In this document: positions 50,401 to 52,853 of the stretch, piece by piece
How the letters are laid out: each line of letters begins with the position of its first letter
How positions within the stretch are numbered: position 1 is the first letter of the stretch
From: Tubiluchus corallicola
Lineage: Eukaryota > Animalia > Priapulida
Reading direction: 5' to 3'
Assembly: GCA_030141605.1 (NCBI GenBank)
Contig: JAQGDQ010000421.1
Coordinates: forward strand, 124,001 to 188,000
DNA: 64,000 bases
The notes under the pieces: generated by a model
Told to the model about the DNA's origin: nothing
The model's database searches: none
The model's input: the letters and a program-made list of their open reading frames with translations, nothing else
Position numbers and translations under genes: made by a program

Positions 50401-52853
50401 TCAGTTTTTTCTATAAACACAGGCTTACCAAACGTGGGTTGAAAAGAATGGCGAAGAACCATTGCTTCCAGGAATTAACCTGACCCATCATCAACTATTT
50501 TTTCTCAATTGGGCTCAGGTAAATTAAGGGAGTTTTAAAGAAAATGTGGAAAAATTTTATTTGTTTATTTTATTTTATTCAAACATGTAATCAGATGCCA
50601 TATTGAACATACAAGTTTTCATTATTTCTTCAGTTAAATGAAAGATGACGCATTGAAACTGCTCGTTTATTGAACTGTTAATTACTATAATCAAAAACGT
50701 CATTTTAATGGGGCTTTAGAACGTTATTATAATTTCAAAACTTGATTGTAGATTTGGTGTGGCAATATGAGAAGAGAAGATGCGATTTCACAAATCAGAA
50801 GCTCTGCTCATAGTCCTGGGCCTATCAGGTGCTGTTTATAAATATATAGGGCCTACACATTTTCCAGGGACATACTTTCTACGCAAACTACAATAGTATT
50901 GTCGCTCATCAGTGGCGGCTCGTGTATGGGTACTGTGAAATTGCAGCACCCCCTATTTTCACTCGGTATTATCGATAATATTCAATATCGATATTTTTCC
51001 TTAGTTGTTTTTTCGTACGCTCCAGTAACGCGGTGTTTGGATGTTGTGCGCATGCGCACATGTCTGAGCCCAGGGAGAGAAAGCACTGTTGCTCATACAG
51101 TTTGTTGTCAGTTGTTACGTGCCTACCGTGAATGGATCAAGCTTAAAATATGACAATTTAGGCTACTAGTCTCCTTCTCACCTTTCTAACCAATCCGCCT
51201 GGTAGATATATTATCTGTCAGCTGGTGAACCCCCGAGAAATCTTCTCCTTCTTGGTTCACCATGTGTTTCTTGAACATAAGAGGTCTTTTACGCCAGTGG
51301 GTTGCTAGCCCTATCCTGACAACCCTCCCCATTTACCCGGGCTTGGGACCGGCATTTAGTTCAGCTGGATTGCTGCCCCAGTGGCTGGGTTCTAGTAGTA
51401 AGCTATTAGTATGCAAAAAAGTTTTTGTTTAGGATTTTGTCAAGTTTATGTATAAACTTTCGTATGTTTGTTTGTTTAAAATTACAATTAGAAATTACAA
51501 CATTAAAATTTATATAATATTAAAACAAGTGCTAAAAATTTTCTAAAGCAGCACCCCCACTAATTTTACTTACGAGCCGCCACTATCACTCATAAACTTT
51601 AACCGTACGATACATTTTGGACTAGTATATTTCTCATTATTACTTAGTTCGTGTGGACTCATTACTGGCGCTCTTACAAGTATCGCATACACATGAAATG
51701 AAATGAAATCATTTATTCTGACAAACAATCATAAATGAAGCCTGTTCATGAGAAGGGAGGGCAAAACGTACCTTCTAGAATCAGACACCTCAAGCATGCA
51801 TCCGCTTGTAGGGCTGTGCCTACTGCAGTTGTGTAGAAGCGATTTAGCCACTCATTTGCTATTAATTCACCTATTAGATACATTCTTATTCATTTCAGTG
51901 GAACAGATTTAATCTTGGATTGATATCTGACTATGTGCTTGGTCTTATTTGCCATCACTGCAAATCTTCCTCATGTCATAGTAGAATAGAACAGAAATTT
52001 ATTTTTTACTTGGATATGCAGAAACACGTTATTTCCATTACAGTCCAAGTGTGGTTAGTAATTACTAAAAACAAAAACAAATGCTATTATAAATAAAAAA
52101 CAAGAAATTAAGAAAAGCATTATAACATAAACACAACACATTGGAATACATCCACAATAAAATTAGCATATTAATTACTAAAAACAAGAAATACTATTAC
52201 AAAAAATGAGAATTTAGCAAAGGTATTGTAAAATAAATAAAACACAAAAATAGTGCATCCACGCTGAAATTAAGCGTATTAAATTTTAAAAATAAGAAAT
52301 ACTATTATTAGAATGTGAAGTTAAGAATTATAGAGTAAGCACAACATACTGCAATTTATCCATAGTAAAATTATACATAGTAACAAAATTTAAATACAAG
52401 ATAAGGCTAAAATCCTATTCAGTTTCACAAATCTTATAGTTTTAAGTGTTGAAATATAAATCACAAAGTGAAGTACAAATTATACATTAAAAGTTTCCAA
52501 TACATGTGTAATAAGATATTATCGATTAGATTAAAACACACTACTCATACGAGCATATAATCTAAAGTTTCTAAACACAATAAGGCACAAATGCATAATA
52601 AGTATAAGCTGGTTGTTAAAAAAAATTAAGGCAAAAGCTCCCTCTGTAGGCCCGTCTTTAACTGTTTGATCATTGTACAATCAATTGCTCTATTGCGTAG
52701 TGAACAGTGGTCATTGTATGTTGAAAGTGTTAGAATGAATTTTAACATTTCAGAGTCTTGGGTCCGCTGTCCAATTCCTATGAGTTCGCCGAAGCTTATA
52801 ACTGCCCAGAGGGTAGTAGGATGAATCCAGTGCACAAGTGTCATGTGTGGTGA
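23495..52853 (+). CDS. Nep1: Neprilysin-family (M13) zinc metalloendopeptidase, type II membrane protein, Nep1-like; 21 coding exons, 761 aa
   Basis: GT-AG exons with consistent phases: 23495-23723, 24506-24550, 25548-25709, 26779-26865, 29262-29381, 30483-30571, 31360-31539, 31980-32066, 32324-32457, 32924-33017, 33601-33729, 33918-34016, 35447-35628, 35975-36033, 47500-47551, 47853-47920, 49667-49797, 49951-50016, 50423-50518, 50752-50828, 52754-52853 (2286 nt, open to TGA). Motifs: N-terminal TM ([24 protein letters not shown]), [36 protein letters not shown] (HExxH), [12 protein letters not shown], terminal CHVW. The family call is firm. Nep1 orthology is from recalled similarity to Drosophila Nep1 and is less certain. 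Confidence 0.95.
26649..26748 (+). repeat. ~51-bp tandem duplication just upstream of neprilysin exon 4
   Basis: AATCATTTTTCATTCGTGA(A/T)CTTA(A/C)ATTTGAC(T/C)AATCTTTATAGTTTTG occurs twice. Confidence 0.85.
28190..28945 (-). mobile_element. 5'-truncated LINE 3' end with a frameshifted ORF2 remnant
   Basis: Overlapping ORFs 28525-28857 and 28502-28795 give [11 protein letters not shown] / [18 protein letters not shown], a typical post-RT region. Confidence 0.65.
29569..29942. mobile_element. Tc1/mariner-type MITE
   Basis: TA-CAGAGGCGTCCAGAAAAAAACGTTCC / GGAACGTTTTTTGGACGACCCTG-TA. Confidence 0.75.
29815..30376 (+). repeat. Near-identical local triplication of the MITE right end and its flank
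   Basis: Copies at 29815-30010, 30011-30124 (truncated) and 30182-30376, with a filler at 30125-30181. Confidence 0.9.
35079..35242. repeat. (TA)n microsatellite
   Basis: Directly visible; a further (TA)n lies at 38521-38580. Confidence 0.97.
36433..42932 (-). CDS. Nested gene: extracellular LRR (chaoptin-like) / LRRCT / mucin-repeat / FN3 membrane-anchored protein, ~1552 aa, 4 coding exons
   Basis: Minus-strand exons 42932-40431 (ATG, signal peptide [20 protein letters not shown], Cys N-cap, many LxxLxLxxN repeats), 40165-39952, 39362-39279 and 38291-36433 (TAA). All introns are GT-AG with matching phases (0,1,1). Splicing assembles an intact LRRCT (NPWICDC...[22 protein letters not shown]), then Thr/Pro-rich repeats, an FN3 domain (W...GFKVY...[11 protein letters not shown]) and a hydrophobic C-terminus. 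An acceptor at 42941-42940 implies an upstream 5'UTR exon. Confidence 0.92.
37066..38157 (-). repeat. Coding minisatellite: 17 x 60-bp units ([20 protein letters not shown]) plus six 12-bp (T/I)TEQ spacers
   Basis: Counted from the translation; 17x60 + 6x12 = 1092 bp matches the span. A degenerate extra unit ([20 protein letters not shown]) lies near 36895-36952. Confidence 0.95.
39377..39806. repeat. Compound trinucleotide microsatellite (TAA)(TGA)(TGG)(TAG)(CAG) filling most of LRR-gene intron 2
   Basis: Directly visible. Confidence 0.97.
46497..46720. repeat. (GTT/GCT/GTC)n microsatellite, followed by a degenerate (AACC/AAGC)n tract at ~46850-47090
   Basis: Directly visible. Confidence 0.9.
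49122..49347. repeat. Long imperfect inverted repeat (foldback/MITE), ~100-bp arms and ~28-nt loop
   Basis: The left arm ATTAATTAATTATGAC...TTTTATCAATTATTAC..CATT..TGGTAATGAG..GAGAAAGGA is the reverse complement of 49250-49347. Confidence 0.85.
51171..51391 (-). mobile_element. Short non-autonomous retroposon (probably RTE-derived) headed by a twister ribozyme
   Basis: GC-richer ~220-nt insert that interrupts a hAT MITE. Flanked by CTAGT on both sides (51166-51170, 51392-51396; possible TSD). The 5' end coincides with the twister cleavage site, there is an internal hairpin GGTGAACC...GGTTCACC, and the 3' end is purine-rich. The RTE link is inference. Confidence 0.65.
51318..51391 (-). ncRNA. 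Twister self-cleaving ribozyme (type P1), present as the 3' cleavage product
   Basis: Minus strand reads AACCCA-GC-CACTGGGGCAGCAATCCAGCTG-AACTAAAT-GCCGGTCCCAAGCCCGG-GTAAA-TGGG-GAGGG-TTGTC. P2 is CCCA/TGGG, P3 is the hairpin CACTGG/CCAGCTG, P4 is CCGG/CCGG with loop TCCCAAGC, followed by GAGGG. The core matches the recalled Oryza sativa twister core GCCGGUCCCAAGCCCGGAUAAAAGUGGAGGG. Confidence 0.85.
52055..52400 (+). repeat. Degenerate A-rich ~105-115-bp tandem repeat (about 3 units)
   Basis: Recurring TAATTACTAAAAACAA..AAAT(G/A)CTATTA...ACACAA...ATCCA..AAATTA. Confidence 0.6.

What the first reader, a model, noticed from the sequence alone, without database searches (positions are those of the whole stretch)
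51171..51391. ~220-nt retroposon that starts exactly at a twister ribozyme cleavage site
Seen: the minus strand carries the full twister core (AA, P2 CCCA/UGGG, GC, P3 hairpin, P4 CCGG-UCCCAAGC-CCGG, GAGGG). The insert begins at the A that follows the scissile bond; the upstream nucleotide and 5' P1 strand are replaced by host flank (CTACTAG, the probable TSD). Established: twister ribozymes process the 5' ends of some RTE-clade non-LTR retrotransposons (e.g. Schistosoma Perere-3). Inference: this is a tiny non-coding, ribozyme-headed element (internally deleted RTE derivative, or retrozyme-like). It would be released from read-through transcripts by self-cleavage rather than a Pol III promoter and mobilised in trans. 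Each insertion site would supply a new substrate strand, so activity would depend on the site. Here the flank gives G at -1 and little P1 pairing to UUGUC, which predicts a slow or silent copy.
Basis: partly seen in the sequence, partly recalled or inferred. Interest (0 to 1): 0.8.

Follow-up and report, generated by a model that had tools for sequence, protein, structure and literature searches.

The report
Twister-headed two-ended RTE retrotransposon remnant
This is a 221-base jumping-gene remnant, one of several related copies, made of the two ends of an RTE-type retrotransposon: it begins at the predicted cut site of a twister-type self-cutting RNA, and its two halves are joined inside a hairpin whose arms lie about 3 kb apart in full-length relatives, a pairing that likely explains how such short copies arise.

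Summary
Confirmed. Rfam twister-P1 matches 51319-51396(-) (E=3.6e-11, below the gathering score) with all core and pseudoknot bases intact. The 221-nt insert sits in a high-copy MITE whose other copies lack it. Two other copies start at 51390-51391; four end at 51175-51184 with unrelated flanks. It is bipartite: RTE 5' end (twister, hairpin, first codons) joined near 51249 to an RTE 3' end, whose last 31 nt match the stop/tail of full-length twister-RTE L069 (26/31). The central 9-bp hairpin straddles the junction; copies differ in the loop (-15 to +123 nt), and equivalent arms pair across about 3 kb in 3 of 3 full-length elements tested, the 5' arm starting at an AUG. Short copies therefore likely arise repeatedly by a jump across a 5'-3' clasp; spread in trans is not shown. 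'Retrozyme-like' and 'slow or silent' are unsupported: G*AA cleaves and P1 flaws are tolerated (PMC8501958, PMC11662667). Twister-headed RTEs and bipartite RTEs are each published; this scan already noted twister-headed short RTEs and the clasp in other genomes. No RNA data.

The parts
51171..51391 (-). Whole element, 221 nt: RTE 5' end joined to RTE 3' end
   Evidence: Absent from other MITE copies (tables 5, 5c); other copies share both ends
51319..51391 (-). Twister ribozyme, type P1, from A+1 (51391): P2 51389-86/51331-28, P4+L4 51352-37, GAGGG 51327-23, 3' P1 strand 51322-19
   Evidence: Rfam E=3.6e-11; P2 covaries on both sides at 4 of 4 pairs among 15 aligned heads
51287..51320 (-). Hairpin and GTAAAA box that follow the twister in RTE heads
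   Evidence: Same layout in the 14 other aligned heads; local fold
51249..51286 (-). 5' UTR and first codons of the parent ORF; AUG at 51263; 5' clasp arm 51262-51254
   Evidence: longer copies continue this frame (loose ends table 7, read by eye)
51234..51250 (-). Junction zone (loop of the central hairpin); copies differ here by about -15, -9, -8, -2, +66, +123 nt
   Evidence: tables 4, 5, 8 (9 of 9 indel rows at 51234-51247); table 4 (10 of 11 rows at 51234-51248)
51171..51248 (-). RTE 3' end: last codons (frame [16 protein letters not shown], stop 51213-51211), 3' clasp arm 51231-51223, purine-rich tail
   Evidence: 51205-51175 match stop/tail of L069 at 26/31; other copies stop at 51175-51184
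51159..51170 (.). Target-site duplication, 3' copy (5, 8 or 11-12 bp depending on the reading)
51392..51410 (.). 5' flank: 19 target-derived bases beyond what empty MITE copies have; supplies G-1 and the 5' P1 strand
   Evidence: (table 5c)
50910..51585 (.). Host MITE: 13-bp perfect terminal inverted repeats (50911-23, 51572-84), 8-bp flanking duplication 7/8 (50902-09, 51586-93); hAT-like by that duplication length (recalled criterion)
   Evidence: 82 and 97 contigs of X1 with unrelated loose ends at 50910 and 51584 (table 7)

Best explanation
The element is the 5' end of an RTE-type retrotransposon (twister fold, hairpin, first codons) joined to the 3' end of one (last codons and tail) and inserted into a MITE, and it likely arose when reverse transcription jumped across the middle of a full-length RNA whose two ends are predicted to be held together by a short helix. 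Shown by sequence: intact twister core beginning at A+1, empty MITE sites, shared ends in other copies, RTE-like tail, hairpin arms on either side of a variable junction, and the same two arms about 3 kb apart in full-length twister-RTEs. Inferred: the parent RNA was released from a host read-through transcript by self-cleavage (giving the AA start), was copied by target-primed reverse transcription from the tail, and lost its middle because the clasp puts the start-codon region next to the 3' end. The short RNA keeps ribozyme, clasp and tail and could be re-copied in trans, but that second round is not shown. This copy's ribozyme is predicted to be still cleavage-competent in isolation.
For: Twister; core intact; P2 covariation 15 both-sided cells, 0 of 500 shuffles (the invariant core columns were selected by my search pattern and carry no weight). 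Twister heads on RTE ORFs: 7 eukaryote-like loci with a long ORF start right behind the head; 5 of 5 scanned carry the endonuclease domain and 4 of 5 the RT domain. 5' boundary: 2 of 2 distinct informative other copies among the records shown start at 51391 and 51390 (table 8: X1 record 5 = X2 record 13; X1 record 6 = X2 record 12 = X3 record 23, equated by shared variants). 3' boundary: 4 unrelated loose ends at 51175, 51175, 51182, 51184 (table 7). Tail: best of 248 unselected strands is L069, at its stop codon and tail; 7 of 246 shuffles reach that score anywhere, 0 of 2000 in that 160-nt region. By eye, loose ends of the longer copies extend the 3' frame upstream to a D-R-x-x-W-R-R motif like the C-termini of L012, L079, L098, L069, L076. 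Clasp: 9-bp helix across the junction, 2 of 300 shuffles, pair probability 0.98; full-length L069, L012, L079 duplex 0, 3 and 16 of 500 shuffles, 3' window ranks 1 of 29, 1 of 31, 4 of 31; arms share UG..AACC / GGU..CA ends with different, complementary middles and start at an in-frame AUG (read from the output). L052 is a 236-nt analogue with a 14-bp duplication and its junction between the arms; in the L079 family 17 of 18 distinct breaks fall at positions 131-156, at or just behind the 5' arm.
Against: Rfam score is below gathering. No autonomous parent of this very family was seen: no whole genome, no RTE ORF in the window; X3 record 10 (398 nt, depth 211.7) only hints at a longer multi-copy element sharing 51190-51232. 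The L069 tail match is partly a purine-rich repeat, and L069's stop lies inside the matched stretch whereas the window's putative stop lies 6 nt before it. The window duplex energy is not beyond shuffles (38 of 500) and the whole element folds no better than shuffles (z -1.15). L012 and L079 are related, so the clasp rests on two independent full-length lineages plus the window; L098 gives 6 bp only. Breaks in the L079 family are biased by assembly (short insertions assemble, 27 of 47 hits ran to a contig end) and may include amplified subfamilies; 11 loci continue past 160. Most of those breaks are not followed by a 3' arm. The nested fold model prefers a helix (element 67-93, p 0.99) that would block the pseudoknot (it cannot model pseudoknots), so full-length RNA may cleave only co-transcriptionally. 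Duplication length is ambiguous. X1 and X2 are one sample and may be the window's source.
Confidence: 0.68

Rival explanations
1. A true SINE-like family: one or a few bipartite founders arose once and were amplified in trans by an autonomous RTE; the junction loop is unconstrained and collected indels afterwards. The hairpin is kept because the RTE protein needs it.
For: Several copies have nearly the same length and both ends; all forms seen keep both arms; bipartite non-autonomous RTEs that amplify are published (PMC5786205 passages); the +123 form has depth 30.1 in X3 against 7.5-12 for single-copy contigs.
Against: At least 7 junction forms among the few copies shown, two of them holding extra parent-like coding sequence; the window's junction contig has single-copy depth (195.8, record 5); the 3' segment has about twice the summed depth of the 5' segment (table 2), as expected with 5'-truncated or full-length parents.
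Confidence: 0.22
2. A full-length RTE inserted here and its middle was deleted later at the DNA level; the hairpin is incidental.
For: The copy is old (about 9-11% different from others, mismatched duplications); junction microhomology is only one base.
Against: Independent copies at other sites have their breaks in the same 17-nt zone, and an unrelated plant-type family does the same; random DNA deletion would not cluster.
Confidence: 0.06
3. Retrozyme-like: tandem ribozyme-bounded units processed to monomers and circular RNA.
For: Size is in the range of animal non-LTR retrozymes (150-300 bp, PMC7761336 passages). A head-to-tail RTE arrangement exists in another host (L098).
Against: One ribozyme only, MITE sequence on both sides, RTE-like tail, heterogeneous 3' flanks; published retrozymes use hammerheads.
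Confidence: 0.04

Closest known systems
T-variant twister ribozymes at the 5' end of Perere-3 (RTE clade), Schistosoma mansoni; Liu et al. 2021, PMC8501958 (outline, sections 16 parts 1-2, 19, 21 and passages read)
   Same: Type-P1 twister lacking its own 5' P1 strand, element starting at AA, duplication next to the cut site supplying the P1 strand, any base at -1, short repeat tail.
   Different: Perere-3 is described as the ORF-bearing element; this is a 221-nt two-ended remnant in another animal group (best named hit of a neighbouring gene: Priapulus caudatus, 42%), with a different P2/P3 and tail. The passages read do not describe short two-ended copies; supplements not read.
Bipartite ORF-less non-autonomous RTE LINEs (Bov-A, RTESINE1/2, MAR4_MD, WALLSI3); Kojima 2018, PMC5786205 (passages read)
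   Same: Only the 5' and 3' ends of an RTE, no Pol III head; the paper links retention of the extreme 5' end to a ribozyme and says the bias towards RTE, Ingi, Vingi and R2 has unknown reasons.
   Different: Main text has no occurrence of twister, hairpin or stem-loop; it cites HDV-like ribozymes. Those families are amplified; amplification of this junction form is not shown.
R2 SIDEs and trypanosome NARTc/RIME (as summarised in PMC6765202 and PMC5786205 passages)
   Same: Ribozyme-headed, internally deleted retroposons released from co-transcripts and copied by the parent's protein.
   Different: HDV-like ribozyme, other clades; R2 is site-specific.
Animal non-LTR retrozymes (PMC7761336 passages)
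   Same: Short, non-coding, ribozyme-bearing repeat. The same review mentions truncated, competent twisters at RTE 5' ends as work in preparation.
   Different: Hammerhead, tandem units, circular RNA; none of these is seen here.

Membership tests
Twister ribozyme, type P1 (RF03160) | Covariance-model match over the whole model | tested here: met
   E=3.6e-11, positions 1-68 of 68; 54.2 bits is below the gathering score 67.2
Twister ribozyme, type P1 (RF03160) | Both pseudoknots, A+1 and the G of GAGGG intact; P2 and P4 paired | tested here: met
   role of these bases from established knowledge
Twister ribozyme, type P1 (RF03160) | Self-cleavage at N^AA | not testable with these tools
   No raw RNA reads; literature predicts tolerance of G-1 and imperfect P1
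Bipartite non-autonomous RTE LINE | 5' part is the extreme 5' end of an RTE | tested here: met
   Head aligns with heads of ORF-bearing RTE loci; 2 of 2 informative copies start at 51390-51391
Bipartite non-autonomous RTE LINE | 3' part is the 3' end of an RTE with a repeat tail | tested here: met
   26/31 to stop and tail of L069; tested on a relative, not on the parent itself
Bipartite non-autonomous RTE LINE | No ORF, no Pol III head | tested here: met
   Longest AUG frame 30 codons; no box A/B match; no tRNA
Bipartite non-autonomous RTE LINE | Target-site duplication of RTE length (7-15 bp, PMC6007223 passages) | tested here: inconclusive
   5/5, 7/8, 9/11 or 10/12
Bipartite non-autonomous RTE LINE | One short form amplified in trans (many copies with the same junction) | tested here: inconclusive
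   At least 7 junction forms among the copies shown; tables cut
Bipartite non-autonomous RTE LINE | Autonomous partner in the same genome | not testable with these tools
   No genome held; none in the window; hint only from X3 record 10
Non-LTR retrozyme | Hammerhead ribozyme | tested here: not met
   Only twister-P1 matches
Non-LTR retrozyme | Tandem ribozyme-bounded units | tested here: not met
   Single core in the window, MITE on both sides; other loci of the genome not seen whole
Non-LTR retrozyme | Circular RNA | not testable with these tools
   No RNA holder listed
tRNA/5S/7SL-headed SINE | Pol III-derived head with box A/B | tested here: not met

The most novel reading that the evidence does not exclude
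Twister-headed RTEs of animals and plants carry a conserved 5'-3' RNA clasp that buries the ORF's start codon against the last codons or 3' UTR. It would act as a switch from translation to reverse transcription and as a hot spot for template jumps, so that the full-length RNA itself keeps spawning ribozyme-headed two-ended (and 5'-only) mini-elements. That would explain why RTE is one of the few clades that yields bipartite derivatives and SINE bodies.
Probability: 0.4. Interest if true: 0.72.

Novelty: new variant of a known kind. Interest (0 to 1): 0.46.

Why it matters
The element alone is a small extension: a twister head known from Perere-3 on a two-ended RTE remnant of a kind known with other ribozymes. 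What makes it useful is the anatomy around the junction. Kojima 2018 leaves open why only a few LINE clades make bipartite derivatives. Here the junction of every copy seen falls between two complementary arms that are about 3 kb apart in full-length relatives and start at the AUG, which gives a concrete, testable cause (arm mutants and compensatory rescue in a retrotransposition assay). A 221-nt unit with ribozyme, clasp and tail is also a natural minimal template for RTE proteins.

Tried and rejected
No whole genome was held, so copy number and pile-ups come from contig tables that are cut (11,692 and 37 records not shown; 874 and 5 loose ends not shown); summed depth suggests tens of copies of the body, around a thousand of a second twister head and thousands of the MITE, but the tool warns that depth is no copy number. 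No RNA holder listed. No second copy in the window. My first idea, that all 221 nt are the RTE 5' end, was dropped: the body aligned to none of 67 downstream regions beyond chance (best 2 of 100 shuffles) and the 3' part matched a tail instead. L125 was found by an exact 20-mer, shows no further match and was left out of the tail statistics. L001-L004 are phage-type twisters, not used. No relative of the L069 ORF in viral contigs. Proteins related to the L069 C-terminus share the D-R-x-x-W motif, none ends like the window frame. Three short window ORFs matched no Pfam family. An exon search for the host group returned nothing. Bacterial promoter/terminator scan, 0 sites, uninformative. The automatic duplication search found an exact repeat of 8 bp or more in 7 of 76 intact-head loci, many too short downstream; the three 8-bp ones may be chance. 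In the L079 family 3 of the loci with enough room were bipartite (L052, L091, L097), two of them lacking both arms. Paper searches that found no description of a twister-headed bipartite RTE or of 5'-3' pairing in RTE RNA: (open-licence library only; Repbase and subscription journals not covered; no supplements read).
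Full report
Observation. Rfam gives twister-P1 at 51319-51396, E=3.6e-11, whole model, 54.2 bits against a gathering score of 67.2; nothing in the window reaches gathering level. 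Both pseudoknots, A+1 and the G of GAGGG are intact. The two non-standard pairs are one in P1 and one in P3. In an alignment of 15 heads (window plus 14 chosen from 120 metagenome loci for diversity) P2 changes on both sides at 4 of 4 pairs, 15 cells, 0 of 500 shuffles; the invariant core was fixed by my search pattern and is no evidence.

Setting. The host is an animal; the best named relative of a neighbouring LRR gene is from Priapulus caudatus at 42%, which is only a coarse placement. The insert lies 7 kb behind the last coding exon of a Ufd2/UBE4-type gene and 8 kb before the LRR ORF, all on the minus strand, so sense read-through is possible but untested. It sits inside a MITE, 50910-51585, with 13-bp inverted ends and an 8-bp flanking duplication at 7/8. 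Contigs of public DNA runs show unrelated loose ends at both MITE ends (82 and 97 contigs in X1) and many joins that skip the insert. Against those empty copies the window has 221 + 19 extra bases. The 19 are target-derived and can be read as a 5/5 or 7/8 duplication, or as 9/11 or 10/12 plus 7-8 re-copied bases. RTE duplications are mostly 7-15 bp (PMC6007223, passages). All readings leave the element's own start at 51391.

Other copies. Among the records shown, two distinct other copies are informative at the 5' end and start at 51391 and 51390 (table 8); one is seen in two studies. At the 3' end four contigs stop at 51175, 51175, 51182 and 51184 with unrelated flanks (table 7). X1 and X2 are one sample, possibly the window's source; X3 is another study. 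In X5 (another organism) the MITE ends and the twister core are covered, the body is not.

Anatomy. Twister heads of the same layout stand right before endonuclease-RT ORFs in metagenome loci, so the head is an RTE 5' end. The body does not align to their 5' coding regions, but its last 31 nt match the stop and tail of full-length L069 at 26/31, the best of 248 unselected strands; 7 of 246 shuffles score as high anywhere and 0 of 2000 in that region. The frame before it reads [16 protein letters not shown]; by eye, loose ends of longer copies continue it upstream into a D-R-x-x-W-R-R motif, as at the C-termini of L012, L079, L098, L069 and L076, and continue the frame from the AUG at 51263 downstream. 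Two longer forms, +66 and +123 nt, are present in both X1 and X3 (table 5), shorter forms of about -15, -9, -8 and -2 in single contigs. All 9 indel rows and 10 of 11 fall at 51234-51248. The element is therefore a 5' end joined to a 3' end, and with the window's own there are at least 7 junction forms.

The clasp. An earlier unchecked note of this scan (e1-9928951) suggested looking for complementary arms at the two ends of RTEs; I tested that on my own loci. The window's central 9-bp helix has one arm at 51262-51254, starting in the AUG, and the other at 51231-51223, so the junction zone is its loop (2 of 300 shuffles give so long a helix; duplex energy 38 of 500, not significant). In 3 of 3 full-length elements the region 18-31 nt behind the GTAAAA box pairs with the last 100 nt: 0, 3 and 16 of 500 shuffles, ranks 1 of 29, 1 of 31 and 4 of 31 among windows along the element. 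Read from that output, the arms share UG..AACC and GGU..CA ends with different but complementary middles, and begin at an in-frame AUG. L012 and L079 are related; L098 offers only 6 bp. L052 repeats the window's design in the plant-type family: 236 nt, 14-bp duplication abutting the AA, junction between the arms. In that family 47 loci were examined: 27 ran to a contig end, 20 broke (18 distinct), 17 of the 18 at positions 131-156, at or just behind the 5' arm; 11 continue past 160. Assembly favours short insertions, and most of these breaks are not followed by the 3' arm, so this is support for a hot spot, not proof of the jump.

Mechanism. Shown: anatomy, shared ends, variable junction in the loop, long-range complementarity in relatives. 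From the literature: twister cleavage sets the 5' end of Perere-3 and the duplication supplies the P1 strand (PMC8501958 sections 16, 19, 21). Inferred: read-through RNA is cut at N^AA; the RTE protein primes at the tail; the clasp brings the start-codon region next to the 3' end so that reverse transcriptase can skip the middle; short copies may then be re-copied in trans. The many junction forms make repeated formation from the parent slightly more likely than one amplified master, but the tables are cut and the question needs the genome.

Activity of this copy. G*AA substrates cleave; among natural twisters P1 imperfections, length and stability did not affect the fraction cleaved, whereas pseudoknot and catalytic changes did (PMC11662667 passages), and those are intact here. 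The flank offers 3 of 4 P1 pairs. In 67 distinct flanks of 76 intact-head loci, -1 is T 31, A 16, C 11, G 9. One reason for caution is different: a nested-structure model strongly favours a helix between the GGG of the pseudoknot and bases 20 nt downstream, which could limit cleavage to a co-transcriptional window.

Novelty. Twister at RTE 5' ends is published (PMC8501958; mentioned in PMC7761336). Bipartite RTEs and ribozyme-headed deletion derivatives are published (PMC5786205, PMC6765202). I found no paper joining the two or describing the clasp (open-licence library, no supplements read; PMC13295347 passages had nothing on ribozymes). This scan has noted both in other genomes, and nothing for this sequence or genome. 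Verdict: real, a new variant of a known kind; interest 0.46, carried mainly by the clasp at the start codon and the clustered junctions.

Noticed in passing
window 51321-51365 (tables 2, 7): Summed depth over the twister core is about 50-100 times that of the element body, and 20 contigs leave at 51321 into a different hairpin like that of L067/L098: the host has a second, far more abundant twister-headed RTE family.
   Followed up: no
window 50910-51585: High-copy hAT-like MITE, whose ends are also covered in a run of another organism (X5).
   Followed up: partly
L030, L080, L121, L086, L015: Twister-headed elements of only about 105-160 nt that stop just behind the start codon region; L030, L080 and L121 have exact 15-, 20- and 11-bp duplications, and L030, L086, L015 end in a short TTG-type tail without the 3' UTR: 5'-only retrocopies.
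   Followed up: partly
L098:150-361: The 3' end and tail of one RTE lie about 20 nt before the twister head of the next: head-to-tail arrangement that a ribozyme would split.
   Followed up: no
L061, L116, L087: Tandem short twister heads, some with P3 deleted.
   Followed up: no
L079, L012 and related loci: Plant-type RTEs with (GTT)n tails carry a twister head; the RTE insertion-signature paper read (PMC6007223) has no occurrence of 'ribozyme'.
   Followed up: partly
window 36433-38337 and 40413-42959 (-): Long LRR exon and a following exon with a 60/72-bp tandem-repeat mucin-like stalk and an FN3 domain, probably one receptor gene.
   Followed up: no
window about 23500-31600 (+) and 58382-60391 (-): Exons of an M13 (neprilysin-like) peptidase and of a Ufd2/UBE4-type ligase.
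   Followed up: partly
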